In this document: one piece after another, positions 8,751 to 64,000 of the stretch
Numbering within the stretch: the first letter of the stretch is position 1
How the letters are laid out: each line of letters starts with the position of its first letter
DNA from: Lingula anatina
Taxonomy: Eukaryota > Animalia > Brachiopoda
Assembly: GCA_051362555.1 (NCBI GenBank)
Contig: CM120640.1
Coordinates: 61,792,788-61,856,787, forward strand
DNA length: 64,000 nt
Direction: 5' to 3'
The notes under the pieces: model-generated
Database searches by the model: none
Told to the model about the DNA's origin: nothing
Seen by the model: only the letters and a program-made list of their open reading frames with translations
Position numbers and translations under genes: made by a program

Positions 8751-14078
<5,328 letters not shown>

Positions 14079-17159: not shown

Positions 17160-21990
<4,831 letters not shown>

Positions 21991-24593: not shown

Positions 24594-27399
24594 ATGTCAA
24601 TTTCTTTTACGTTAGTCTTTTTTGCCTTTTTGGGCTGCAGCACGTTGGTGAGATGTGCATATCAAGACGATCCATTTTATTACGACAAATTTCCAGACGG
24701 CTTTCTGTGGAGTACAGCGACATCCTCCTACCAAATTGAAGGTGGATGGAACTCTTCTGGTGAGTGTTATACTGGTATACTATACACAAAGTATGCCGTT
24801 AATGAACGATAACAATTAAAACGTGTGGGTATTATAAAGCTTGTAGCACTAGATAACGGACATATACATCTTTGGCAGTTCCCATTAGCTTTCTGTGATT
24901 TAACGTCGCAAAAATGATGAACTCATGTTGGCATTGCCTTATTTAAATATCCAATTTACATTGTGAATGTGTAGGACTTAATCCAATCATATGGTGATTA
25001 AGGATATCTTTCTGTCTGTCAGTGATGGTCGTTTTGATACTTTTGGTCCAGTCTGTACTCCGGTATGTACCACAGTACAAGGACCACGCCAAAGGAATAC
25101 TTGACATAAGTAAACACACTTAATACAATCCAAACTGGCTCTTCATTCTTATCACAGAGATTGAGATGTGTCTATATACAGTGGTTGAATAACAGCACGC
25201 ACTTGTTTAAGTAATATATCAGTCAGTGCGTCCTCATCTAATTCCCTTGGTTATCGAAATGGCCTCAGAAAGCATGGAATACGTTACACATATGGGATAT
25301 TCCTTCCGTCACCTTTGGTACTTCCAGTGTGTTTCTTTTGCTTTTTGTACATTAATGTTTTGTCTTTTATAGTCATTTTGAAATAACTTGGCTTCCTTTC
25401 GAGTTGTCCTAAATTACACTGGACTTTAAATTTCATTAATTTTTCTCGTAACTACGTATTTAGCTAAGTGCAACATTTAAGAATTTCCATTTTCCCATAT
25501 GAAGTTTAAGCTGATAAGTTTGATGTCTCAGTCCATTTTCAGCTATCTGGACATAAGATTTTAACTGTTTTATTTAACTGAGATGACAATTTCCCTCCAG
25601 AAAAAGGTGAAAACATCTGGGACCGTTTTACGCACACCTGCTGTCACATAGAAGATAATTCCACTGGGGATGTTGCGTGTGATAGTTATAATAAGATCCA
25701 AGACGATGTCCAATTGCTGAAAAATCTCGGGGTTTGTATCATAATGTGACATCGCAAGTTGTCTTGGAGGGGGGCGGGAAAGCGAATGAATTAGAAATTA
25801 AAGAGAGTGTTTTGGGATTTGTTAGGGTAGCTTGACTTAGACTGGGCTCCCACAGATTTAGATCGATCCAACTCCCCCCCCCCCCTTACAGCTTTTTGTA
25901 GGCGGGACAGACATATAAGCCGGTTAAGCTGACAGCAATCTAGTGAGATTCTCCAGGGGGATAGATCGATCTAAACATCTGTGGGGATGGTCTCTTAAAT
26001 ACGACATGCTTAAAGTATTGATAATTTAATTAATAATAAACAAAATATAGAAATTGGCGACTATGTATAAAAGAGAGTTATTGCATCCATTTCGAATAGG
26101 GCATTTTGTTTTAAATTAAGAAAGGGCATTTTGTTAAAAAGCAACATATTAAAAAACATGCAGAGTTATTTTAATTTTTGTTTATTGCCAACAGGTTTCG
26201 CATTACCGGTTCTCCATTTCTTGGTCACGAATCATGGCTGATGGAACGAACGCCACATTAAAAAGCGGGGGTATTGATTATTACAACAGACTTATCGACG
26301 CACTTAAGGAAGCCAACATAGAGCCAATGGTGACGCTTTATCACTGGGACCTTCCACAGGCACTACAGGACATCGGTGGGTGGGAGAATGAAACGCTGGT
26401 TGGCTACTTTAACGAGTACGCAAGGACATGTTTCAAGAACTTTGGGGAAAAGGTAGAATCTGCATTTTGTTTACGAAACTATAAATTTGTTTTTTTTTTT
26501 TCATTTCTAAACGTTAATATTTACGTAGGTGCTGGTTTGTGCTTATACTTCTTAAAGATTTTAAGAGGTTGGGAATGTTGTCAAGGAAACTATTACCATT
26601 TAATTATGGCATATAAACTTGGTTTTCAGCATTTATTTCAGATGTATTGATATTGTAGGAGCACATATGAGAAACGTTCTATTGAGCAAATGTCAAATTG
26701 TAATGTTCTTTATTTGTTACAGGTAAAGCTTTGGTTGACATTCAACGAACCATTTGTTGTTGTGTGGGTGGGGCTAGGATTTGGGGCACATGCCCCTGGA
26801 ATCTCTGACAGACCAGGGGAGGCACCTTACAAGGCCGCTCACACCATTATTAAATCACACGCTGAAGCATGGCATACTTATGATGACGAATTCAGATCGA
26901 CACAGAAAGGTAGAAATAGAAAAAATATATTACGGATAAAGATCAATCGCATGATGTGCATCAAACTTCGGGCTAAATGTAGCATAAGAATATAAAAAAT
27001 TCAAATTCACTGTAAATTTCTAATAGTCTTACGTATACCATAATACACATCTCATATATTTAAGGTCGCATCTCCATCACACTGGATTCTGACTGGAAAG
27101 GGCCAAAAGATCCAAACAGTGCCGATGACAAAGCTGCCTCCGAGAGGGCCATGCAGTTCAAGCTCGGATGGTTCGCGAATCCAATTTTCAAAAATGGCGA
27201 CTACCCAGATGTAATGAAGGAATTGATCGCCAATAAGAGTGCTGAAGAGGGTCGAAGCACATCAAGGTTACCAGAATTCACGGATTCTGAAAAAGCCAGA
27301 ATAAATGGTATTTTGAATTTAAGTAATCATATTTCTGTATAAGTATATATATTCATTTACACTTTAGTGTCTGGTACTGTCGAATTACAAGTATGCAAG

Positions 27400-27456
<57 letters not shown>

Positions 27457-28681
27457 GTAACTAAGCTACCAGCGCCTGCATTCTTATTAAGGTCAACATT
27501 TATTGTTACGACATTTCTTACCTTACACCTGCAAATCATTGCGTTTTAGGTACATTTGATTTCTTTGGGTTAAATCATTACACGACTCAGCTGATAACCA
27601 CCAAGTACCGCATTGACAAAAAACCAAATTATGGTTCTGACATGGACGCTGAAGAGAGCCAGGATCCCAGCTGGCAAAGGTAACACTTTTTACAACAGAG
27701 TCTTTAAATTAATATATAATTAATTTTGGGATAAACATGTCAAACACACCAACAGTATTTAGCTTATGTCATTTTCAAAAGTTTTATTCAAGATTATAAA
27801 TACAAGTATGTGTGGCTGATAACATGGACACCTCACACCTCGTTGTTTTCAACAGTTGCGTTGTCTCCTGTGGTGAAATAAATGTACAGTATGCAATCAT
27901 ATAAAACGATTTTAAACGTTTATGTTGCCGTACCAGGGCCGGATCTTCCTGGCTGTATGTCGTACCGTGGGGTCTGAGAGCACTGCTGAACTGGATAAAG
28001 GACAATTACGGAAACCCAGAGTTGTACATTACGGAAAATGGCGTTTCCGATCGGAATGCATCTCTACAGGACGACCACAGAGTGGAGTTCTACAGGAACT
28101 ACATCAACAACGTCTTGAAAGGTACCTTCTTCTCTTCTCAATCTTCCCGTATTCGTGCAGTAATCTTAACAGTGCGAGGATTGCAGTGATATATGACCTC
28201 GTTATATTTTCTTGTTCAAGAAGCCCCTGGTACTATATCAGTAATCACTATGATTTAAGTTTATTATTCATACAAATAACAATACATTATGTTATTTCTC
28301 GTATTTACGATTGTTTCCATGGTGCTCAATAGAATAATCTTTATTTTTACAACTTATAATTCAGCCATCAACAAAGACGGATGCAACGTTAAAGGCTACA
28401 CTGCCTGGTCTCTAATGGATAACTTCGAGTGGGCGGCAGGTTACAAAGAGAAATTTGGACTCCATTACGTCGATTTTTCGGACCCTGCCCGACCACGAAA
28501 AGCAAAGAAATCTGCCGAGTTCTACAAGCAACTTATTAAAGATAATGGTTTTAATGCTCCTACTAGTGCTCCTACTAGTGCTAGTCCTACTAGTGCTCCT
28601 ACTAGTGCTGTTGGGCCCCGTCACCGCGCCTCTTCGGTTCTGTTTATGGTTGTGACATTATTAATCGAATTTCTAATGTGA
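24594..28681 (+). CDS. GH1 beta-glucosidase copy B; signal peptide, PTSA-repeat stalk, GPI-like tail
   Basis: Exons 24594-24759, 25601-25731, 26195-26452, 26723-26909, 27065-27307, 27550-27679, 27937-28121, 28365-28681. [23 protein letters not shown] and [10 protein letters not shown] are intact. Probable 5'UTR intron ~24456-24558. Confidence 0.93.
25849..25985. mobile_element. Short inverted-repeat element (probable MITE remnant) in intron 2 of GH1 copy B
   Basis: CCCACAGATTTAGATCGATC pairs with GATCGATCTAAACATCTGTGGG. No clean TSD was found. Confidence 0.45.
27402..27452. repeat. (TA)n microsatellite
   Basis: Direct reading. Confidence 0.9.
28556..28609 (+). repeat. Coding 12-bp tandem repeat (CCTACTAGTGCT = PTSA) x4 in the GH1 copy B stalk
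   Basis: [18 protein letters not shown] is encoded by near-identical 12-mers. Confidence 0.85.
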
Positions 28682-39381: not shown

Positions 39382-40520
39382 TGGGGGTAGGGGAGAGAAA
39401 ATGCTTACTATATCTATATGGTAACAGGTATATCAATACATTGTATATACTTATGGAGGCAAGGGATGGGACAGTTTATTTCAAAAGTCATGAATGCATG
39501 ACAATTAGTCAAGGGTCATTGATAATGGGTCAAAGGTCACAGGAGGTCATTTTTGGGGATTTTTCATAAATTAAAGCCAAAAAGTTTTTTTAAAATCATT
39601 ATTTAAGTAAGAATATGGTATTTCGTGAATGATTTGTAAAGATGGTATAGTCTTATGCTTATGAGCAAAGTTTGGAGCCTCAGCTGTCTTATTTCAGAAA
39701 ATTATGTTAAAGAATGTGAACCTAATGACCAAAATATGCCATCTCTGAAAGTGGGGGTAGGGGAAAGAAAATCCTTGCTACATCAATCTGGTTAGAGATA
39801 TATCAATGCATTATATATTCTTATGGAGGTAAGGGATGGGACAATCAATTTCATAAATCATTTATGCATGACAGTAAGTCAAGGGTCATTGATAATGGGT
39901 CAAAGGTCACAAGAGGTCACATTTTATGGATTTTTTATGAATCAAAACCAAAATCTTTAAAAAAATATTGATTAGAGAAAGAAATTGGTATTTGGTGAAT
40001 GATTTGTAGACATGGTATAGTTAAACACTCATGAAAAAAATTTGGAGCCTCAACTGTTTTATTTAAAAAAATTATGTAACTAGTTAAATGTGAACCTTAT
40101 GGTCATAGTTTGCCCTCTTTGCAAGTTGGAGTAGGAGAGAGAAAATGCTCGCTACATTAATATGGTGAAAGATATATCAATGCATTATATATCCTTATGG
40201 AGGAAAGGGATGGGACAATTAATTTCTAAAATCATTTATGCATGGCAATAAGTCAAGGGTCATTGATAATGGGTCAGAGGTCACAAGAGGTCAAATTTTA
40301 TGGATTTTTCATAAATTTAAACCAAATTCTTTAAAAAAATATTGTTTGAAAAAGAAATTGGTATTTGATGAATGATTTATGTTTATGGTATAGCATCATA
40401 CTTATGTAAAACACTTTGGAGCCTCAACAGTTTTATTTTAAGAAAATTATGTAACTAGTTGAGTGTAGCCTAACAGTCAAAATTTGCCAACTTTGAAAGT
40501 GGGGGTAGGGGAGAGAAAGT
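39382..40520 (+). repeat. ~370-374-bp tandem repeat array (3 units + partial) in the left TIR; mirrored at ~43255-44391
   Basis: A TGGGGGTAGGGGAGAGAAA-like motif recurs at 39382, 39752, 40126 and 40500. GTCAAGGGTCATTGATAATGGGTCA recurs in each full unit. Confidence 0.88.
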
Positions 40521-41508
40521 GCTCATCATTTGAAGGCAGTAGAAGATACAGCAACAAAATGCACATATTTATGCAGCTTTGGAAGAGGACCTTAATTTCT
40601 TGATTAAGACACCTGTAGAGAAAGTCATGTCTCATTAGAAAAAGGTCGAAAGGTTAGCCCAGGTCGAATTTTAAGCTTTCTTATAAATATAAACCTTAAC
40701 ACCATTTTTATATTATTTTTGGGTTTAAATGTATTATATTTAGGGATAACTTGATATAATATAATTATTTATGACTAATGCATTAAAATTTGAGACTGTA
40801 TATACCCATTTTTCATACATTTTATTCACATTTGGTTACTTTTCCTAAAAAAAGCCTACGCACACTGTTTATTTTGATTCCATAATCAAGGGAAATAGGT
40901 ATTGTTTTTAATACTAGCATTCAGAAACATACCTTAGTCTTTTGATTATATTTTTGATGGATTTTAAATTTTTTTATCATAATGAGATAGTCCATTGAAA
41001 AAGACAAAAAATTAAGCCTGCTTCATTCTGATCTCAGGAGGAGATAAAGGGAAACAAATTCAGACTGGTATCCGGTATGAAGAGCAGATATGAAAATTCC
41101 TTCAGCCTCATTCTATCTTAAACCCTAAAAATTGAATCACCTCATGCCTGTAACCATGCCACCAATGCCACAACAAGGGAATTTAAGTACCATTTAGTTG
41201 AAATTAATATTTTGAAAGACCTGTATCCAAATATTGCCCAGTCTTTTCGTGAAATTGAACATTTCGCAGATATTATTCTTCTTTCTATACATATTTATAT
41301 TCAAGATCTGCAGATTCAAGATGGGTAGTTTGTGTTCTGAATGTATGGTAGTCCTGAGAGAAAACGCAGTGAAGTCCACAATAGGCTATTCTATTATTCT
41401 ATTCTATTATCCTATTCTATTATTCTGTAAAATTTCTAAACTTACACCAAATTGTCAAAATTTTATTAAGGGGGCACATACACATTATACTCAAAATTTC
41501 TTCAGAAT

Positions 41509-41676: not shown

Positions 41677-44600
41677 AGAATGGCAACAGATTTATGGCTA
41701 GGTGGCATTTAAGGTCAAACAGAAGCATGTTTATTGTCCTTAGATGCATCAATTTTCACATTGTCATAATTTAATTTATTATTATTGATCTTTTGAGGAG
41801 GGCGGGTTGCAAATACTACACACATATTCACTAACAAATATTTACAGGATTTATAGGATGGCAGAGGAACTAAATAATAAGTGGAAAGAAGGCAGATCAT
41901 TTTTCGGCATGGACCCTGCTCCGTGATATGAATTTATCCATGTACACCATAGGCTGATCAAAGATTGAAGTAGGCTTCATAGCACATATAACATTATCAT
42001 GTTGATTGTTTATATGTGTTTTGTCAAATTAATCAATTATTTGGTTGAACATTCTAATTTAGCTATTACATGTAGTAATTAAAAGTTATCCATCAGTTGG
42101 ATAAAATGTTTTATCCATGAGCCAGCCCAGTCAGTACTTGGGTACTAGTATACTGGTAATAATTATTGATATAATAATCTTTTCTAAACCGATTTGAAAT
42201 ACATTCACTTTCTTACTGTGTATACTGTAACAGAAGTTTTGACGTCTAAATCTGCCAATTAAAGTTCATTTATTAGTTGGAAAAAAGAATGTGAAAACCA
42301 AACTGCTTGTAGAAGTTTAAGTTTCTGATAAGATTTTATACTTTTTACTTATTTCAAATCAATGTTTTCACTTACACAGTGACTTACATAACATGCATTG
42401 CTATTTTGGAAATAACTGTTCTTTCAATTTTTACATTTTGCTTAGATGAAAAACTATCCATTGTGTACACTGAATTGACAGGCACTTTTAACTGCTGAAC
42501 CTCAGATACAGTCTGATGTTGAACAGCATAATTTTGATTATACAGTCATACAAATTTCAAAATTTTATGTATGCTTTAATTAAATAAAATTTTAGTTATT
42601 TCCCTAAATATGTTTTGCAAATAACAAATATGTATCACCATTAAATCATCCAAACGTTTTCATCTAAATGTTAAAATTTTCAGATATTGCTTAGATTTTT
42701 ATGCTGTAAAGTGAGTGTGGGTGACCATTGACCATTGACCAACCACTGACCCATTAATGCATGATAATGTGCCCTCTTTAAAAAAGTAAACTTGATGAAC
42801 ATCTTTTGGATACAGGCTATGGTACAATAGCTTTGCATCTTACTTCTTCCAAATTGAATGAAAGTAAAATTTCACTTCCTGGCTCCTTATAATAGAAAGT
42901 TTTCACTTCCATTTTGAATTGAAGTTATATAATATGCAAATAAAAAAATCTTAGAATTAAAGAAGGGGCCTCAGACTCGATGAACTAGTCTTTAATAGTC
43001 ACACAGCATCTAGTTATACCCAAAAGTATTTCTATAATCGAAAATGTTCTCTTTTAATGGTGTTTAAGTTCATATTTATGAAAAAGCTTAAATTGTTGAT
43101 GAAGTTTGGCCTCAGCTGACACTATTGACCTATTTCTAATGAAGCATGACTTTGTTTACATGTCTTAATAAAAAAAAATGAAACGTCCTTTTCCAAAGCT
43201 GCATAAATATGTGCATTTTGTTGCTGTATCTTCTACTGCCTTCAAATGATGAGCACTTTCTCTCCCCTACCCCCACTTTTAAAGTTGGCAAATTTTGACT
43301 GTTAGGCTACACTCAACTAGTTACATAATTTTCTAAAATAAAACTGTTGAGGCTCCAAAGTGTTTTACATAAGTATGATGCTATACCATAAAGATAAATC
43401 ATTCACCAAATACCAATTTCTTTTTCAAACAATATTTTTTTTAAGAATTTGGTTTAAATTTATGAAAAATCCATAAAATTTGACCTCTTGTGACCTCTGA
43501 CCCATTATCAATGACCCTTGACTTATTGCCATGCATAAATGATTTTAGAAATTAATTGTCCCATCCCTTTCCTCCATAAGGATATATAATGCATTGATAT
43601 ATCTTTCACCATATTAATGTAGCGAGCATTTTCTCTCTCCTACTCCAACTTGCAAAGAGGGCAAATTATGACCATAAGGTTCACATTTAACTAGTTACAT
43701 AATTTTTTTAAATAAAACAGTTGAGGCTCCAAATTTTTTTCATGAGTGTTTAACTATACCATGTCTACAAATCATTCACCAAATACCAATTTCTTTCTCT
43801 AAACAATATTTTTTAAAAGATTTTGGTTTTAATTTATAAAAAATCCATAAAATATGACCTCTTGTGACCTTTGACCCATTATCAATGACCCTTGACTTAC
43901 TGTCTTGCATAAATGATTTATGAAATTGATTGTCCCATCCCTTACCTCCATAAGAATATATAATGCATTGATATATCTCTATCCAGATTGATGTAGCAAG
44001 GATTTTCTTTCCCCTACCCCCACTTTCAGAGATGGCATATTTTGGTCATTAGGTTCACATTCTTTTACATAATTTTCTGAAATAAGACAGCTGAGGCTCC
44101 AAACTTTGCTCATAATCATAAGACTATACCATCTTTACAAATCATTCACCAAATACCATATTCTTACTTAAATAATGATTTTAAAAAACTTTTTGGCTTT
44201 AATTTATGAAAAATCCCCAAAAATGACCTCCTGTGACCTTTGACCCATTATTGATGACCCTTGACTAATTGTCATGCATTCATGACTTTTGAAATAAACT
44301 GTCCCATCCCTTGCCTCCATAAGTATATACAATGTATTGATATACCTGTTACCATATAGACATAGTAAACATTTTCTCTCCCCTACCCCCATCTAGAAAA
44401 AGTCCTTGCTGCTGCAGGGGTGGGGTTATATAAGGTGTGATAGCACCCAAAAAGCTACCAGTATGAGAAGGCTATCACACATATTTGGGCACTAGAGACA
44501 TAGGCCTTACTAAAAATCACTATGAGAATTTGGCCCTTTTTTGGTACCAATGGCTGAAAATCAGGGGTCTGGCTCATGGACTATATATATATTCGGATTT

Positions 44601-45799: not shown

Positions 45800-50131
<4,332 letters not shown>

Positions 50132-54320: not shown

Positions 54321-57300
54321 TTAGCCTTGTTGGCCTTGGATTCCTTGGAGTAGAGACATCATCAAATTACCGTTGTTGCCAGTACTTGTGGTGCTGCTTG
54401 AGAAAGTGCTGCTGGACCCTATATTTGTCAAGGCTGACAACGCTCTACCCAGAGTTCCCAGAGGGCATTCTGCCTGTGCTATGCACCTGTTGTTGTGGAA
54501 GATAGGGGTGGGGTTTGGGCACGCGCAGCCTTGATTGAGCGCCCTGTTATTGTTAGAATTCGGGCTTGGATTATCGCAAGTGGGAGTGACTGCAGGCGCA
54601 GTGTTTGTATAGATCTGGCCGTTGAAGCAGGTTATACCTGAAAATGAAAAAGTAAAGAATCAGAGTAACGTTTGAATCACGGCTGGTCTGTGTTATCTGT
54701 TCAAGTTTAACTTATGTAAATTTAAACAACGAGTAAAATGCTTTAAGTGTGAATATCTATAGATGTTTCATTACTCGCAATTTCTCTTCAAGATTCTTTA
54801 TCATTTTAGGTAATTAAAACACACAATCAGAATAATTAAGCTCTGAAAAATACGAAATGTATTTATTAGTAAATAGTACGTCATAAGGTGGCCATCAGTT
54901 GTCTCCAAGTTTACATGTAAACCATTAAACGAGCCCAAAGATTGCACCGTTTTGATGCAGCAGGCACAACCAATAAAATGTACCCGTTGCGCGTAACCCC
55001 AAGAAGTTTGATGCAGTACACTGTGTGCGTTTTAGTACAGTAGGCCTACATATAACAATCAAAATTATCAAACACGACAAATATATCTACTGTAGGTAAC
55101 ACCTTAACCATGCGGTTGGGGTATTAAAACCACTTACGTATGTTGCACATGTACATTTAAGACCACAAAGCTGGGATTTGAGATTTAATGTCTAAAAACC
55201 AGGCATAGGGAGGACAATTGGGACAACCAATATACATACAGGCAAGTCACCTCTTCCAACACTGACTTTTGAATCTACCGCACACGTCGCACTTAATACC
55301 GCCATGCACACATGTACTCTTTTTTTTTTCATTCCCAACCCACCCATGCTCTGATTATAAATTACTAGCCTAATTCGAAAACACACGGAATTGAGCATCC
55401 ATCGCACTAAGATGTCAGCAATATTTGAGAAATGTGCTATACATCTACATGTATTCTCTGCTCTACGTTGAAACTCCCATCTCAGTCTAACCCAGCCTAA
55501 CCCATTGAGCCCCCATTATGTCCTACAGGCTTGAACTATTTCAAAATGCCTTTTTTTTTCATACCCCCGGTCTGCTCAGCCTGGTTAACAGGACACTCTT
55601 GTAGGCGCTGGCAAACGCCATTTTTATTGAGGATTGGCTTATCAGCCGGGCACTCGCATCTTTTAACGCAATTTTTCACGCAACGAGGGTTGGGTTCGTC
55701 ACACGTTTTGTCGCAAGCAGAGGCGCAGGTTTTGTATTCCTGGTTACCAGGACATAGCACTAGAAAAGAGATCCTAGATTTATGTATTTGACCACATCAT
55801 TTTCTTTTGACAATAGTAAGACATTTGGGGGGTCATTTAGGACAAGCCAAATGAAAAGGAAACTGCTGTTCTATCAAATCCTGTATCATTCCAACCACTG
55901 TCACATGTACATAAATGTAAATATAACCACCGAAATTTAAGGGTTACATCACGCATTCTGAATCATCTATCCTTAACAGCTTTAACTTAAAAGTCTAAAT
56001 ATAATCATTTGATTGATTACATGACAGATAATTCCACTCACTATCTGTAAAAACAGCCTATTGATTTTATATAAAAGAAACTGATTAACCTAATTTTCAT
56101 CCTTACTTCTAGCGCTTTTCAGTGTATTGTAGATGGGGTGCGGAGAGAGTAATTTAGGCCAATGGATAAGTTACTAGTACGTATAGCAGAGGCTAAGGGG
56201 TAACAGAATCTATGGGTACACTTTCGCTTTAAAATGGACATTTGGTATGTTTACTAGCATTTACCACTGTCGCCCCCTATGACCCTGCTGTTCGGACCAT
56301 AACCAGATTAATAAGTTTTTAGAATAATTCACGGCTGCAAACAAAAATATCGTCTTTAGTGTGTTGAGACTTCTTCGAGGAAACGGATTATTTACCACTG
56401 TTTGTTGAGACGCCCCCTTGCTGCTGCTGCTGCTGTTGCTGGCCTCTGAAGTTTGTCAACAGTGACGAGAATATGTTAGTATTTGTGTTAACTACTCCAC
56501 TAATTCCAGCTTGGTTTCTTCCAGCCGATCCAAGAGGACACTCAATGGCAGGTTTACACTGTCCAGCATCTTCAAAGGGCCTATCGAGCGGACAGACGCA
56601 GCCTGGCACGCACCCGGTAACTTGGCAGACTGGGTTAGGACTGTAGCACGTCTTGTGACAGTTGGTCGCACAGCTATCGTACATCTGGCCAGCGGGACAC
56701 GTTATAGCTAGAATACACGACAATTCAGGTCATCTTCGTCTAGGAAATGTTAGGAGGATTCAATGTCACATAAGATTTCATTCTGTGTCTTATATTGTTT
56801 AACAATATACTTACTACAAGTACAAATAAAAGGCAAAATAATAATAATGGTATGACAACTTGTAGATAACTATATCGATATAGATCGATAGAGACACAAA
56901 TAAATAGGTATAACAGTTTGCCTTTAAAGTCCTGAGACTTGTGAGTAGTTAGTACGCGTGTTATTTGGAATAAATGGACTGCATTGCTATCTTTCTAAGT
57001 TAATATTTGAATACATGGAAGACACTAGAACACATTGGACTTTGAAACACATGCCCACAAAACGTGCAAACTAAAATTAAAATCTTATTATATTTCTAAG
57101 AAGTTATTGAAGCCTGTTATATAAGTTTTCTGCTGTACTTACAATTGTCGCTAATAGTTCCAATGGAACCAATATTTCCTGCATTTTCATTTTTGCTAGC
57201 GTCATCGCCACTAGTGCCCAGAGTGCCTTGGTTATTGTTGAAGCCTTGAATGTTATTAATACCTAGGTTATTGTTTAAGCCTAGATTACTGTTCAGCACT

Positions 57301-58899
57301 TGATTTGTATTAGCGCCTTGACCACTGGTTCTTAATCCTTGGGAACTGGTTTGGTTTTGGTTTGTTTTCCCACCTAGAATATTATTATTAATACCTTGGT
57401 TGGAGTTAAAACCTTGATTATTAGTATTAGTTTCTTGGTTATTTATGTAATCTTGGTTAATATTAAAACCTTGATTTGAACTGGTGCCTTGGTTTGTGTC
57501 GGTAATTTGATTGCTAAGTCCTTGGTTTATGTTAGTGGTTGGGTTATTGATAGGCCCTTGATTATTGTTTGACCCTCCAACTTGGGGAACTCCAGTTGAT
57601 CCAGATGTAGTTACACCAGAATTTATGTTTAAGTCCTGGTTGTTACTGAAGCCTTGGTTATAAGTGGCCCCATGGTTATTTAAGCCCTGGTTTGTATTGA
57701 CGCCGTGGTTGTTGAAGCCTTGGTTTGTGTTGGTACCTTGGTTGTTATTGAAGCCTTGATTGTTATTTAACCCCCCAATAGAGCCAGGCTGAATGATGCC
57801 TGTAGATCCAGATGTGCTTACACCTTGATTTGCGTTTAAGCCTTGGTTTTTAGAATAAACTTGGTTATTGAAGCCTTGAATGTTTGTTAAGCCTTGGGTA
57901 TTGGTAGTGCCCTGATTATTAGTAAAACCTTGATTGATGTTACCTTGGTTTGTGTTGATACCTTGGTTATTAAAGCCTTGGTTTGGGTTGATACCTTGGT
58001 TATTGAGACCTTGGTTTGTGTTAGGACCTTGGTTGTTGATGAAGCCTTGATTTGTGTTGGTACCTTGGTTGTTGATAAAGCCTTGGTTTATATTGGTACT
58101 TTGGTTATTGATGAAACCTTGGTTTGGGTTGGTACCTTGTATTACGCCTGTAGATCCAGATGTGGTTATACCTGAATTCACGTTAAAGCCTTGGTTGTTA
58201 TTAAAGCCCTGGTTATTTATCGAGCCTTGGTTATTGGTTAAGCTTTGACTTGTGCCGGTGGCTTGATTATTGTTAAAGCCTTGATTATTGTTGAAGCCTT
58301 GGTTTGTCGTACTGATACCTTGGTTGTTGGTGAAACCTAGATTACCACCTTGGAAGATTCCAGGCTGAATAACTCCAGATGAGCCAGACGTGGCGACACC
58401 TGAAAAGGAAAATGACGGTACTCATGAAATATTAACATGTACGTGTCTTTGTAGTATAAAACATCGTGTTTGAACCTGAAATAATGTGTTTAACATGGTG
58501 ATATTGAAGGTGAACTGTAAATGAAAAGAAATATCAAGTCCAGTATGACTGGCAAACCACCATGTTTCACCCTTAAATTTATCTTCATTCTTTCATCAGA
58601 ACTTTAAGCAAATAAACGCATCTGTATTATCACCAAGGAAAATATAATCCTGCAAATCATGCACTGTACTTACTGTATAGACAAAGTTAACTTGAGATTT
58701 TTTCAATGTATATATAAAGCGAAACATGTACAATGTTACATCGTGTATGATACGTCCTGTTGCCATGTACTAATAAAGTCAATCGGAAAGCAAGACATAA
58801 ATAATAAAAGGTAGATGTAACATGAAATTCTATTAATAAACGCACCCCCACACTGCCATAAACACTAGACATTGTTATATACATTCTGTCCGAGCACAC

Positions 58900-58932
<33 letters not shown>

Positions 58933-61900
58933 TTATACATCTAACATTTACCCAACACAGCAAACAATTGCTAAACATACCGATTTGATACAATCACTCT
59001 ACTTCCAAATGCAAGCTAAGCTTTTTGCTAATGGAAACTAGCATTACTTATACATGTACCTGTGGAAGAACTAGACTGGCTGTTGGTTTGACTAGTTTGA
59101 CTATAACCAGGACACTGCTCTAGTGCTATGCATTGACCATTATAGAGAACTGGTTTGTCTGTAGGGCAAGCACAACCCGGGTTGCAGCTGAGACCGCAGT
59201 TTCTGTTTGGATCATCGCAAGTTGGTGGACAGGAAGATGCACACAGTGTATAATACTGGCCATTGCTACATGCTAATAAAATCGATCGAAAAGCAGGAAG
59301 TAAGATCAGCAGAAATAAAGCAAATAAGCAGTAAACCTCCTAATAAATGACTAGCACCTTACCCCACAATTGTGACGTTCACTGCATCGCTTTCTATTCT
59401 AATTTTAAATATAGCAAATACACAAAGCTCAAAACGAATATATGAAATTATGAAAATGATACGAAAAACCATATGAAGCAAAAAATCTCGGGTCTTTCTA
59501 ACAAGCAGGAAAATAGCGCAGTACACCGCTACAACTGCTGGTTGACACAAGGTATACTCACTTTGAGAACCCTGGGTGGATGATGTACGTCCTGGAGTAC
59601 CCAGGGGGCAGCTGTATTGGTCAACACACTGGCCGTTGTGTACAAATGGCCTCGAAGGCGGACACTCGCACCCAGGAATACACCGAGGTTGACACTGCTG
59701 GTTACTGTAACATGTGCGAGTACAGCCAGATGAACAGGTACTGTAGACTTGCCCACCGGAGCATTCTGGAGAATGTTAAAAAATGAATATCATGTGAACA
59801 CATATAGAATGTCTATAAATGTGAAGACGATCTGTTCATGTTAATACGGGTAAAAACAGAAGTGAAGTAATTGTTGATTGAACAATGCGGGCATCCTTTA
59901 CCATGCTTCGGGTCCCCACTATAACAGAATGCAATTGACATTTGACGAAAATGTATACTAAGAGCATAGTAGGAGGATAAAAAAATTTCATTTCTACTTT
60001 TCCACCATATTTCTAATTAAACTGTTTCTTTACACGCTACGTTCATTTAACAGGTCGACTTGTTGATTAAACAGGGATATTGGTCTCGTATTGGGTCACG
60101 TCTGAAATTGAATTGCAACGCTTGCTTACGCTGGCTGACGCCACTTCCACTAAGGGTCATCTGGCACTCCATCAGGGTTCGACATTGTCCGTTGTGGAGA
60201 TAAGGCTTTGTGCTGGGACATTCACATCCAGATCGACATGGGGCGAAATTGTTGCAGTTTTGGTTCTGGTTAATGTTGTAACACGTTTTCACATCGCACT
60301 TTGACAGGCACTGCGTGAACGTTTGACCTCCACTGCAAGCTATTAGAAAAGTAAAGGACAACATGAAAGGCATGTGAACAGATAACAATTGGTCTATCAT
60401 GTAGGCTCGACGAATTTATCAAGCAACAGGAGCAAATGTGTCTGATACATTGAACACTGTTCTACTAAGACAACTTTAACACTTTGTTCTACCAACTTTT
60501 ACACTTCAAGTAATCATGCAGTCTAGTAAAGCATGGAACGATGGCACTAGCAAAAGGGAGTAACTGTATATTAATGTCGCATTAATTATCTTGCCAGCGA
60601 CGCCAATCTGTAAAACATTCACATCAGAAACAACATAGCTGGCAACATACCATTCCAAGACCAAGACCCTTGTTAAACCAATTTCATTCATTTTATGAAT
60701 TGATCGACGTCAAAAAGTTACAAAAAAGCATTGTAAAACAATTTTGTATTTCTAAGGGTTTTCAATGAGCCAGCAGTACACCTCATTAACTGATGGACTA
60801 GTTTCAGACTGTTCAAATGTGTTGAATGCTACAGAACAAGAAATACATACACTGGGTGGAAGCGCCACTAACACCACCTGTGTTTGAAACACCACCTGCT
60901 CCAGAGAAAAGCGTGGCACTGGCACCAGCAAAATTGATACACTGTATCTGAGAGTAACATTGGTTATTATGCCAGTACGGTTTATCAGCGGGACAAGCGC
61001 ATCCAGCGCGACACGCCAAATTACACGGTACGCCAATATTGGGTTGCAAGCATGTGGATGAGCATTGAGAAGCACACTGCTGGTAGATCTGTCCGCCAGT
61101 GCAAGCTGTAATGCAACAAAAAAGCTAAACGTTTAAACATAGTGCAACCCATACTACAAAGAGTCTTATAATCCTACAGTGCATCTATATGATTAACGTT
61201 ATATATAAATATATATAAGAATATCACAATTTCAGGTGAACTCTGTTTTAAACTTTACAAGTGCTTATGAAGGAAAGACAAATAATCTGCAAATACGCAT
61301 TCAAATTCACGGTATACTGTTAAACAACGAAAAATGGAAAAGCTCAAGCCCAAAATCCTACAAATAGTCAAATCACTATTACAAGCAATGAAATCATGTC
61401 GTGGCGCATTGAACAAGTTTAAATAAAGTAAATGCCTACACTGGGTTGAAATACCACTTGCGCCACCATTATTTAAAACTCCGCTGGATACAGTAAAAAG
61501 TGTAGCACTGGCGCCAGCAAAGTTGATACACTGTTCCTGAGAGTAACATTGGTTATTATGCCAATATGGTTTATCAGATGGACAGGCGCATCCAGCGCGA
61601 CACGCCAAATTACATGGTACGCCTATGTTTGGTTGGTAGCATGTAGATGAGCACTGAGAAGCACACTGCTGGTAGGTCTGTCCGCCAGTACATGCTGTAA
61701 TGGAATAAAGCAGAAGCAAATAAGCTCAACTACAAGACACTGTGTCACCTGTCAAACAGAATTCTCAATAATGCAGAGTAAAGCTCATGCACTAGCGAAA
61801 CACGCGAAATGAATCGCAATAACATTGGCAATTATGCTAGTATGTTTTATCCGTTAAGCACTGAATGCGTATACTACTGGACAGTAGTAAAATAAATAAT

Positions 61901-64000
61901 AAGAAAGATAATATCTGAGTAGTATTTGCTACCTCGCGTAACATCAGCAACAACTTCGTCACACCAGTAATACACTGAATGGATATACATACACTGAGTT
62001 GAAACATCACTAGCTCCAGAGAAAAGTGTAGCACTAGCACCAGCAAAATTTATACACTGTTCCCGAGAGTAACACTGGTTATTATGCCAATAAGGTTTAT
62101 CAGATGGACAAGCACATCCAGCACGACACGCCAAATTACACGGTACGCCAATGTTTGGTTGCAAGCATGTGGATGAGCATTGAGAAGCACACTGCTGGTA
62201 GATCTGTCCGCCAGTGCATGCTGTAAAGCAACAAAGCAGAAGCAAATTAGCTCAGCCACGAAAGAAATGTGCAAAAGAAGCCACTTGTCAATAGAATTGT
62301 CGCTAATGTGAAGTATAGCTCCTGCACAAGCAAACAAATGTACAATGCATTGGGAAATAACATTGGCATTTATGCTAGTATGTTTTACCAGTGTAATGTC
62401 AGTAAGTGACAGCATGCAGGGAGTGTTTGGTAGAGTAACTTGAGTTGATTGACATGCTCTTATGGTATTTATACAACTGCGCATAATATAAACGAGGGAA
62501 AAGGCCGCTAGATATTGCATGAGGTAGAAATAGAAATGAAGAGACCGGCACAGGTAACAACTGGACAGTAGTTAAATAAATAATATGAAAGATAATATCT
62601 GAGTTGTATTTGCTACCTGGCTTAACATCAGCAAAAACATCGTCACACCAGTAAAACAATGACTGAATATACATACACTGAGTTGAAACACCACTAGCTC
62701 CAGAGAAAAGCGTGGCACTGGCACCAGCAAAATTGATACACTGTTCCCGAGAGTGACATTGGTTATTATGCCAATAAGGTTTATCAGATGGACAAGCACA
62801 TCCAGCACGACACGCCAAATTACACGGTACGCCAATGTTTGGTTGCAAGCATGTGGATGAGCATTGAGAAGCACACTGCTGGTAGATCTGTCCGCCAGTG
62901 CAAGCTGTAAAGCAACAAAGCAGAAGCAAATTAGCTCAGCCACGAAAGAAATGTGCAAAAGAAGCCACTTGTCAATAGAACTGTCGCTAATGTGAAGTAT
63001 AGCTCCTGCACAAGCGAACAAATGTACAATGCATTGGGAAATAACATTGGCAGTTATGCTAGTATGTTTTACCAGTGTAATGTTAGTAAGTGACAGTATG
63101 CAGTGAATAAGAGCAGGGAGTGTTTGGTAGAGTAACTTGAGTTGGTTGATATGCTCTTATGGTATTTATACAACAGCGCATAATATAAACGAGGGAGAAG
63201 GCCGCTAGAGGTTGCATGAGGTAGAAATAGAAATGAAGAGACCGGCACAGGTAACAACTGGACAGTAGTTAAATAAATAATATGAAAGATAATATCTGAG
63301 TTGTATTTGCTACCTCGCTTAACATCAGCAACAGCATCGTCACACCAGAAAAACAATGAATGAATATACATACACTGAGTTGAAACACCACCAGCTCCTG
63401 AGAAAAGTGCAGCACTGGCACCAGCAAAATTGATACACTGTTCCCGAGAGTAACATTGGTTATTATGCCAGTAAGGATTATCAGATGGACAAGCACATCC
63501 AGCACGACACGCCCGATTACACGGTACGCCAATGTTTGGTTGCAAGCATGTGGATGAGCATTGAGAAGCACACTGCTGGTAGGTCTGTCCGCCAGTGCAT
63601 GCTGTAATGCAACAAAGCAAAAGCGAATAACCTCAGACATAGAAAAATGCGCGAATTAATAGAATTGTCGCTATTGTAAAGTACAGCTCCTGCACAAGCG
63701 AAAAAGTACAATGGATTGGCAAATAACATTGGCAGTTATGCTAGTATGTTTTACCGGTAATACACTGAATGAATATACATACACTGAGTTGAAACACCAC
63801 TAGCTCCAGAGAAAAGCGTGACACTGGCACCAGCAAAATTGATACACTGTTCCTGAGAGTAACATTGGTTATTATGCCAATAAGGTTTATCAGATGGACA
63901 AGCGCATCCAGCTCGGCATTGTCTTGTACACGGTACGCCAATGTTTGGTTGGTAGCATGTGGATGAGCATTGAGAAGCACACTGCTGGTAGGTCTGTCCG
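54321..64000 (-). CDS. Multi-TIL (trypsin inhibitor-like cysteine-rich) domain protein with an Asn/Gln/Gly-rich low-complexity region; 5' part outside the window
   Basis: Phase 1-1 exons (minus): >64000-63783, 63601-63374, 62904-62677, 62220-61993, 61694-61440, 61105-60851, 60339-60130, 59765-59562, 59272-59060, 58399-57143 (NQG-rich), 56707-56396, 55759-55565, and terminal 54637-54321 (TAA). TIL exons have the 10-Cys pattern C-x8-C-x3-C-x3-C-x8-C-x3-C-x3-C-x-C-x11-C-x5-C (spacing varies in the downstream exons; the last has only 6 Cys). Confidence 0.85.
57143..58399 (-). repeat. Coding low-complexity repeats (NQG[F/L/T/I]N[N/T])n with recurring GVxTSGSTG spacers
   Basis: The 354-aa ORF 57117-58181 extends in frame to the acceptor at 58400-58401 and contains dozens of NQG motifs. 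Confidence 0.9.
58901..58930. repeat. (TAT)n microsatellite
   Basis: Direct reading. Confidence 0.85.
60851..64000 (-). repeat. Recent tandem duplication of exon+intron units (six near-identical TIL exons, period ~410-700 bp)
   Basis: Exons of 228 or 255 bp share CTGGQxYQQCASQCSSTCxQPNIGVPC. Introns 62221-62676 and 62905-63373 are near-identical. Confidence 0.9.

What the first reader, a model, noticed from the sequence alone, without database searches (positions are those of the whole stretch)
60851..64000. Near-identical tandem TIL exons differ most at the predicted P1 reactive site
Seen: six recently duplicated TIL exons are almost identical, yet the C5-C6 loop reads CNLAC (4 copies), CNRAC (63374 unit; TTG>CGG, two changes in one codon) and CTRQC (63783 unit). 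Older downstream domains read CNNFAPC, CQPRC, CGLSC, CQVTGC and CVKNC. Established: in canonical TIL inhibitors (Ascaris CPLMC chymotrypsin/elastase inhibitor and CTREC trypsin inhibitor) P1 is the second residue after C5; Leu gives chymotrypsin/elastase specificity and Arg/Lys gives trypsin specificity. Inference: one polyprotein is expanding a multi-specificity inhibitor array, possibly under diversifying selection at P1.
Basis: partly seen in the sequence, partly recalled or inferred. Interest (0 to 1): 0.72.

Follow-up and report, generated by a model that had tools for sequence, protein, structure and literature searches.

The report
Brachiopod inhibitor array with swapped loops
A lamp-shell (Lingula) gene strings together many near-identical copies of a small cysteine-rich domain whose predicted protease-binding loop comes in a few distinct versions, likely giving one protein several inhibitor specificities, a pattern already known from other multi-domain inhibitors.

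Summary
The six exons and their loops (CTRQC, CNRAC, CNLAC x4) are real, spliced, phase 1-1 TIL exons of a Lingula anatina gene. The title is half right. The loop holds 9 of 43 nucleotide changes, but these are 2 of 29 clustered events (P=0.47). P1 is no more variable in protein than three other positions, and loop pN/pS is 0.69. The real signal is a block: unit U0 differs from U2 at 10 of 15 loop bases, synonymous ones included, while its flanks are nearly identical (pS 0.03). A second block-like loop (CTLPC) occurs in three other samples. The exons are mosaics (24 of 36 site pairs fail the four-gamete test), and exon order differs in another sample's RNA. Best reading: a likely multi-specificity inhibitor array homogenised by gene conversion, with old loop types kept distinct, not fresh point mutation at P1. 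Other tandem TIL proteins show the same Leu/Arg/Lys toggling, and multi-P1 inhibitor arrays are in print. Inhibition is untested. New member of a known kind.

The parts
63783..64000 (-). TIL exon U0 (cut by window end), loop CTRQC, P1 codon AGA at 63922-63924
63913..63926 (-). Divergent loop block of U0: 10 changes in 14 nt against the majority of units, including synonymous Cys and Arg codons
   Evidence: scan P<1e-4 against each other unit; a contig of run X5 fits the same block
63374..63601 (-). TIL exon U1, loop CNRAC, P1 codon CGG at 63513-63515
   Evidence: the CGG change is also in contigs of runs X1 and X3
62677..62904 (-). TIL exon U2, loop CNLAC
   Evidence: model pLDDT 74 with TIL fold matches
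61993..62220 (-). TIL exon U3, loop CNLAC
61440..61694 (-). TIL exon U4, loop CNLAC, longer G/S linker
   Evidence: both borders used in RNA of X18
60851..61105 (-). TIL exon U5, loop CNLAC, longer linker
   Evidence: U5-like ends spliced to U4-like starts in X18
60130..60339 (-). Older TIL exon, 5-residue loop CNNFAPC; likely multi-copy in sample X18
   Evidence: bin depth about 20 against 6-8 on the bins of two downstream exons, and joints back to unit exons
59562..59765 (-). Older TIL exon, loop CQPRC (Pro at predicted P1)
59060..59272 (-). Older TIL exon, loop CGLSC; bypassed in X18 RNA
   Evidence: 4 reads join the upstream exon to the next one, depth 0 here
57143..58399 (-). N/G/Q/T-rich low-complexity exon with two in-phase donors: long form 1257 nt, short form 58319-58399 (81 nt)
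   Evidence: open frame, 27% N, 17% G, 13% Q; short form in 5 X18 reads; long form not shown by a joint
56396..56707 (-). Older TIL exon, loop CQVTGC, with poly-Q linker
   Evidence: 8 of 8 shown differences in X18 are synonymous
55565..55759 (-). Older TIL exon, loop CVKNC; no X18 reads in its bin
   Evidence: depth 0 in bin 55596-55919
54321..54637 (-). Last coding exon: 6-Cys reduced TIL-like domain lacking C2, C3, C5 and C6, then S/T/G/Q tail and stop
   Evidence: covered by X18 reads, 9 of 11 shown differences synonymous
63692..63753 (-). Decayed TIL exon remnant in the intron after U0 (others at about 63042-63075, 62324-62391, 61820-61851, 60525-60597)
   Evidence: 71-84% identity to the C-terminal half of the unit exons

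Best explanation
This is the 3' part of a spliced Lingula gene for a likely secreted chain of TIL domains, likely a multi-headed serine-protease inhibitor, whose near-identical exons are mosaics likely homogenised by gene conversion and unequal crossing-over, while a few old versions of the predicted reactive loop likely escape homogenisation because they differ in specificity. Shown: phase 1-1 TIL exons, splicing, purifying selection on the framework, mosaic exons, block-like loop differences, four loop types (NLA, NRA, TRQ, TLP), and different exon order in another sample. Inferred: secretion (the 5' end is outside the window); canonical substrate-like binding with the second residue after C5 as P1 (recalled rule); Leu loops against chymotrypsin, elastase or subtilisin-type enzymes and Arg loops against trypsin-type enzymes; selection as the reason the loop blocks persist. 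The N/G/Q-rich exon and the domains with altered loops would act as spacer or matrix anchor.
For: TIL identity and fold. Splicing in X18 with GT-AG ends on the minus strand. Framework pN/pS 0.14, and synonymous-biased differences between samples on older exons (8 of 8, 3 of 3 and 9 of 11 shown rows). Mosaicism: 24 of 36 informative pairs incompatible. Divergence peak: U0 versus U2 has 10 of 17 differences in 15 nt with pS 0.03 outside the loop, and none of the 10 pairs without U0 shows a cluster. The TLP-type contig of X1 has 5 of 9 differences in codons 24-30 (fixed-window P=0.008, scan P=0.057; places inferred). Such a peak is the published signature of selection under gene conversion (PMC3924837, passages). 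Amino-acid variation is concentrated in the loop across samples. Among TIL hits without a VWD domain 52 of 86 parsed loops have K/R/L/M at P1, against 1 of 11 in VWD proteins (P=0.002, domains not independent). P0060, P0061 and P0065 alternate PLI/PRI/PKI in tandem. Arg or Lys at P1 confers trypsin inhibition on silkworm TIL inhibitors (PMC10004685, passages).
Against: No activity data. The commonest loop, NLA, has Asn at P2, seen in 2 of 86 relatives against 58 of 86 for Thr or Pro. The best sequence and fold matches include VWF and mucin TILs, which are structural; VWF TIL2 has the similar loop CNEAC. The loop region of the model is low-confidence (pLDDT under 50 at residues 23-26). Several older domains have Pro at P1, altered loop length or lack the loop disulfides. 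The peak rests on two loop haplotypes, and a short conversion patch from an older paralogue gives the same picture without selection. The N:S ratio in the loop is not higher than outside (P=0.45). In the expressing sample every read laid had Leu at P1. In P0055, 15 of 15 near-identical pairs share the same loop.
Confidence: 0.48

Rival explanations
1. The loop blocks are neutral: short conversion tracts copied from older TIL exons or paralogues happened to land on the loop, and selection does not keep them.
For: Only two block haplotypes are known, and events touching the loop are not in excess (2 of 29, P=0.47). TRQ and TLP loops occur in other poly-TIL proteins, including a Lingula paralogue with TRQ (P0056). 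Conversion is rife here.
Against: Both blocks centre on the loop and no block is seen elsewhere in the 10 pairs without U0. No donor within 2 mismatches lies in the window. The TRQ block likely recurs in X5 and TLP is seen in X1, X3 and X18.
Confidence: 0.22
2. The protein is a structural mucus, shell-matrix or adhesive component; TIL domains are disulfide-bonded spacers and the exposed C5-C6 loop is simply less constrained.
For: Top PDB matches are VWF and mucins. The gene holds a 418-residue N/G/Q/T-rich segment, a poly-Q stretch and a 6-Cys reduced domain. TIL domains occur in flatworm adhesive proteins (PMC8621496, passages) and in a different, Kunitz-bearing Lingula shell protein (PMC13425148 supplement rows). 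Loop pN/pS is below 1.
Against: No VWD or C8 domain among the exons in the window. P1 stays within Leu/Arg while its neighbours change. Relaxed constraint does not explain raised synonymous divergence at the loop.
Confidence: 0.2
3. One reading: recent duplicates under positive selection for new point mutations at P1.
For: Arg appears at P1 in two different codons (CGG, AGA), and codon 26 has the most base changes. CGG arose on an otherwise unchanged NLA loop. Positive selection at reactive sites is reported for Pot II repeats (PMC2259423, abstract).
Against: Loop pN/pS is 0.69; P1 has only two states and is no more variable than three framework positions. The AGA sits in an old block, not a fresh mutation. 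The CGG change was not seen in the X5 contigs or X18 reads laid.
Confidence: 0.1

Closest known systems
MEROPS I8 / TIL canonical inhibitors (Ascaris C/E-1 1EAI, AMCI 1CCV, BSTI 1HX2)
   Same: Ten-Cys pattern, three-residue C5-C6 loop, Leu or Arg at predicted P1; profile hits BSTI at E=4.5e-8 and AMCI at 6e-4; fold Z 5.1-5.3, rmsd 2.2-2.8, 50-54 aligned.
   Different: Those are single-domain peptides with shown activity. This is a chain of at least 12 TIL or TIL-like domains with low-complexity linkers and no shown activity.
Multi-TIL insect inhibitors (Plutella PxSPI28 with 17 tandem TILs; PxSPI32 with Ala and Lys P1)
   Same: Tandem TIL domains with different predicted P1 residues in one chain (PMC5309989, passages).
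   Different: Here the domains are near-identical mosaics with block-like loop differences, an N/G/Q-rich exon and exon order that differs between samples.
Unnamed tandem-TIL proteins P0060, P0061, P0065 and Lingula all-TIL paralogue P0056
   Same: Near-identical tandem TILs toggling Leu/Arg/Lys at P1 (P1 differs in 4 of 6, 3 of 4 and 3 of 4 near-identical pairs, P2 in none). P0056 has a TRQ loop.
   Different: Only 40-48% identical to the unit; no exon or population data; P1 ranks 1st to 4th among their variable positions.
Potato type II (Pot II) multi-repeat inhibitors
   Same: Tandem inhibitor repeats with a conserved cysteine scaffold and a variable reactive site (PMC2259423, abstract).
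   Different: Unrelated fold; omega above 1 reported there, not found here.
VWF / gel-forming mucin / SCO-spondin TIL domains
   Same: Best sequence and fold scores (E=8e-13 for whole VWF; Z 5.6-5.9).
   Different: They sit in VWD-C8-TIL-E assemblies. None is seen in the exons inside the window.

Membership tests
TIL domain (Pfam PF01826) | Ten cysteines in TIL spacing; score above the Pfam cut-off | tested here: met
   6 of 7 ORFs scanned pass the 24.5-bit cut-off (25.7-37.3 bits); alignment A1. The last domain has 6 Cys only.
TIL domain (Pfam PF01826) | TIL fold | tested here: met
   Model pLDDT 74 in 1 of 5 models. All 8 chains with Z>=5 are TIL-bearing entries, Z 5.1-5.9. Z under 8 is modest by the tool's own note.
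MEROPS I8 canonical inhibitors | Three-residue C5-C6 loop with a Leu/Met/Arg/Lys-type residue second after C5 | tested here: met
   All six units, and CGLSC and CVKNC. Not met by CNNFAPC, CQPRC, CQVTGC or the last domain. That P1 is second after C5 is recalled; the paper I tried to check it in was not held.
MEROPS I8 canonical inhibitors | Tight, substrate-like inhibition of a serine protease | not testable with these tools
   Needs an assay.
MEROPS I8 canonical inhibitors | Secreted (signal peptide) | not testable with these tools
   The 5' end lies beyond 64000 and no genome is held.
VWF/mucin/SCO-spondin/zonadhesin D-assembly proteins | TIL next to VWD and C8 domains | tested here: inconclusive
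   None among the window's exons; the 5' part of the gene is unseen.
Reactive-site positive selection (Pot II type) | dN/dS above 1 at the reactive site | tested here: not met
   pN/pS 0.69 for codons 25-27; N:S not higher than outside. Low power, and recombination weakens the test.
Selection-maintained divergence under gene conversion (opsin type) | Homogenised flanks with a narrow divergence peak at the functional site | tested here: met
   U0 block, scan P<1e-4 with flank pS 0.03-0.06 to U1 and U2; TLP contig P=0.008 fixed window, 0.057 scan. Only two haplotypes.
Selection-maintained divergence under gene conversion (opsin type) | The peak residues change function | not testable with these tools
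   Needs an assay.

The most novel reading that the evidence does not exclude
Lingula keeps a polymorphic, recombining repertoire of protease-inhibitor heads in one gene: gene conversion homogenises the exon framework, selection preserves whole old reactive-loop cassettes, unequal crossing-over changes their number and order between individuals, and cassette splicing adds or removes the two older heads with canonical P1 residues (CGLSC, CVKNC) and the N/G/Q-rich spacer.
Probability: 0.2. Interest if true: 0.65.

Novelty: new member of a known kind. Interest (0 to 1): 0.4.

Why it matters
Multi-headed inhibitors with varied P1 are well known, so the kind is not new. If the reading holds, this locus is a neat natural test set: domains with an almost fixed scaffold and four natural loop types, in which loop sequence can be tied to specificity. 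It would also be an intragenic case of the divergence-peak signature of selection under gene conversion, in a phylum for which my searches found no paper on TIL domains (0 papers with Lingula + brachiopod + TIL domain). It also warns that per-codon dN/dS on such arrays counts one conversion block as many selected mutations.

Tried and rejected
No whole genome is held, so units beyond 64000 could not be read directly. A single-unit protein search among longer proteins gave 0 hits of 278 candidates, the representatives search 0 hits and a single-unit PDB search 0 hits; no full-length protein of this gene was found, and proteins over 2000 aa were not searched. The Atlas gave no answer. No RNA holder was listed in the run index; raw reads were laid instead. 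Three of four RNA runs (X12, X14, X15; about 6 in 100 of each read) gave 13-25 reads, largely on intronic pieces, and are uninformative. A protease-domain complex prediction returned no verdict, so docking is untested. No donor for the U0 block was found in the window: 3 hits at 3 mismatches, none closer. Assembly error was rejected: CGG is in X1 and X3 contigs, and an X5 contig has the 8 letters plus 2 gaps that U0's block predicts; two of the eight letters are not printed in the table, so this is inferred. Contig depth was not used as copy number. Identity with the TIL-bearing shell protein XP_013385661 was rejected as unlikely: it has Kunitz domains, and its TIL-like peptide is not in the translations. 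Two look-ups of earlier findings returned nothing. The AMCI structure paper was not held.
Full report
Setting. The window is from the brachiopod Lingula anatina: a neighbouring acetylcholinesterase exon is 100% identical over 99% of its length to the named NCBI protein. No whole genome is held. The finding lies in the 3' part of a minus-strand gene whose 5' end is beyond 64000. Inside the window the gene has six near-identical TIL exons (U0-U5), five older 10-Cys TIL exons, an N/G/Q-rich exon and a last exon with a 6-Cys reduced domain and the stop. The internal exons seen whole are phase 1-1 with AG/GT borders, so any can be duplicated or skipped in frame. Pfam TIL passes its cut-off for 6 of the 7 ORFs I scanned; the seventh is the low-complexity ORF.

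Observation. Over 63 alignable codons there are 43 site-allele changes, 9 of them in the three loop codons (binomial P=1.6e-4), and P1 has the most, 4. But the changes are not independent. Clustered by unit they are 29 events, of which 2 touch the loop: a 10-base block in U0 and a dinucleotide in U1 (P=0.47 for at least 2). In protein, 12 positions vary, each with two states. P1 differs in 8 of 15 pairs, position 16 in 8, positions 3 and 49 in 9. pN/pS is 0.14 outside the loop and 0.69 in it. So P1 is the most changed codon but not the most variable residue, and there is no omega above 1.

How the units evolve. Only the introns between U1, U2 and U3 are close (94%). The others are 72-80% alike over their 3' parts, with a 120-nt 5' part at 91%, and two are unrelated. 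Synonymous distance outside the loop runs from 0.03 (U0-U2) to 0.44 (U4-U5). Of 36 pairs of informative sites, 24 show all four gametes, which points to exchange among units. Five introns hold decayed pieces of a TIL exon at 71-84% identity, so exons are also lost. Against this background U0 stands out: 10 of its 17 differences from U2 lie in 15 bases, including the synonymous Cys6 and Arg codons (scan P<1e-4 against each of the five others), while none of the 10 pairs without U0 shows a cluster. The window holds no donor for the block.

Other samples. I laid contigs of three DNA runs and reads of one RNA run on 131 bases of U2. The table gave 37 rows and appears to omit some, and 24 of the contig pieces were listed with 74 more not shown, so the counts are approximate. 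Four loop types appear: NLA; NRA (CGG change in X1 and X3, not in the X5 contigs or X18 reads laid); TRQ (one X5 contig with the 8 letters and 2 gaps that U0's block predicts); and a type not in the window, TLP (one contig each in X1 and X3, about 9 of 25 X18 reads). The eight listed X1 pieces all cover the 31-mer 62801-62831, against 5 versions among the window's six units, so more copies or alleles exist. The TLP contig has 5 of 9 differences in codons 24-30 (P=0.008 fixed window, 0.057 scan; places inferred from matching depths). Over codons 10-41, amino-acid variation is denser in the loop: 3 of 3 versus 7 of 23 for P2-P1' (P=0.046), 4 of 4 versus 6 of 22 for P3-P3' (P=0.014), and 6 of 7 versus 4 of 19 for P5-P4' (P=0.005; the windows were chosen after seeing the data). 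Synonymous variation is denser too (9 of 9 versus 13 of 23 codons), and the N:S ratio does not differ (7:11 versus 6:13, P=0.45). That fits an older loop inside younger flanks rather than faster protein change. In X18, 0 of 25 reads had the base that CGG needs.

Expression. Of four RNA runs only X18 covered the gene (178 reads from about a quarter of the run). Joints with minus-strand GT-AG ends link U4 to the CNNFAPC exon (3 reads, bypassing U5), the CQPRC exon to the N/G/Q exon (4 reads, bypassing CGLSC), and an internal donor of the N/G/Q exon to the CQVTGC exon (5 reads). Joints that go back link the CNNFAPC exon to U4-like (5 reads) and U1-like (2 reads) starts, and U5-like ends to U4-like starts (6 reads). 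Loose ends show further exons not in the window (13 and 14 reads), and depth on the CNNFAPC bin is about 20 against 6-8 on two downstream exon bins. The simplest reading is a different number and order of exons in that animal; back-splicing or unseen upstream copies are not excluded. Of the 40 of 105 difference rows shown, those on three older exons are mostly silent (8 of 8, 3 of 3, 9 of 11); on the CQPRC exon one linker codon changes and one is silent.

Function. A profile of 11 domains hits VWF and mucins best, then BSTI, LL-TIL and AMCI. The U2 model (pLDDT 74 in one of five models, residues 23-26 under 50) matches mucin, VWF, BSTI, Ascaris C/E-1 and AMCI at tied Z 5.1-5.9. The fold therefore cannot separate inhibitor from structural TIL. 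The profile found 42 longer proteins among 1424 candidates. Among those without a VWD domain, 52 of 86 parsed three-residue loops have K, R, L or M at P1, against 1 of 11 in VWD proteins (P=0.002, domains not independent), and P2 is Thr or Pro in 58 of 86; domains my pattern did not parse were left out. TRQ and TLP are thus typical inhibitor-like loops and NLA is atypical at P2. Three hits (P0060, P0061, P0065; the first and third nearly the same protein) alternate PLI, PRI and PKI in near-identical tandem domains, whereas P0055 repeats one loop.

Mechanism. Shown: a spliced multi-TIL gene under purifying selection, with mosaic exons, block-like loop types and exon order that differs between samples. 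Inferred: the protein is secreted; each intact head presents its C5-C6 loop like a substrate; Leu heads block chymotrypsin, elastase or subtilisin-type enzymes and Arg heads block trypsin-type enzymes; conversion and unequal crossing-over homogenise and resize the array, and selection keeps distinct loops (0.48). Rivals: neutral patches from older paralogues (0.22), a structural matrix or mucus protein with a relaxed loop (0.20), and positive selection on fresh P1 point mutations (0.10).

What is known. Passages of PMC5309989 describe a 17-TIL moth protein and a two-TIL protein with Ala and Lys at P1. Passages of PMC10004685 show that Arg or Lys at P1 gives silkworm TIL inhibitors trypsin activity. 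The abstract of PMC2259423 reports reactive-site positive selection in Pot II repeats. Passages of PMC3924837 describe the divergence peak under gene conversion. A passage of PMC4567993 gives the TIL disulfide pairing. Passages of bioRxiv 2024.10.04.616518 place TILs in MEROPS I8 (supplements not seen). Passages of PMC8621496 note TILs in flatworm adhesives. Section 8, passages and supplement rows of PMC13425148 list one TIL plus Kunitz protein in the Lingula shell. A term search of the main text of PMC4595640 found no mention of TIL or trypsin inhibitor (supplements not checked). A search for Lingula + brachiopod + TIL domain gave 0 papers; the listings showed no title on this gene.

Verdict. 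It is a new member of a known kind. Interest 0.4.

Noticed in passing
window 57143-58399 (-): A 418-residue N/G/Q/T-rich open frame with NNNQGF-like repeats has an internal in-phase donor at 58319; X18 RNA uses the short form in 5 reads, so the low-complexity segment is likely an alternative extension.
   Followed up: partly
window 59060-59272 and 55565-55759 (-): The two older TIL exons with canonical three-residue loops (P1 Leu and Lys) are the ones missing from X18 RNA; skipping and deletion cannot be told apart.
   Followed up: partly
window 63692-63753, 63042-63075, 62324-62391, 61820-61851, 60525-60597 (-): Decayed TIL exon remnants inside five introns of the array.
   Followed up: partly
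window about 62419-62480 and 63075-63125: Intronic pieces that attract reads from RNA runs whose ends run on into unrelated sequence; likely a fragment of a dispersed repeat.
   Followed up: no
window 12607-13473 (+): Acetylcholinesterase exon, 100% identical to the named Lingula anatina protein.
   Followed up: partly
window about 17578-18108 (-), 26153-28678 (+), 48200-49560: Several open frames that read like glycoside hydrolase family 1 (lactase-like) exons on both strands, suggesting a small gene cluster; the family name is from recalled motifs, not from a search.
   Followed up: no
window 39382-40524 and 43252-44391: Two arrays of a 374-nt unit, about 3 copies each, apparently in opposite orientation; possibly the ends of an inverted-repeat element.
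   Followed up: no
P0057: A relative joins several TIL domains to a C-terminal tyrosinase-family domain (PF00264).
   Followed up: no
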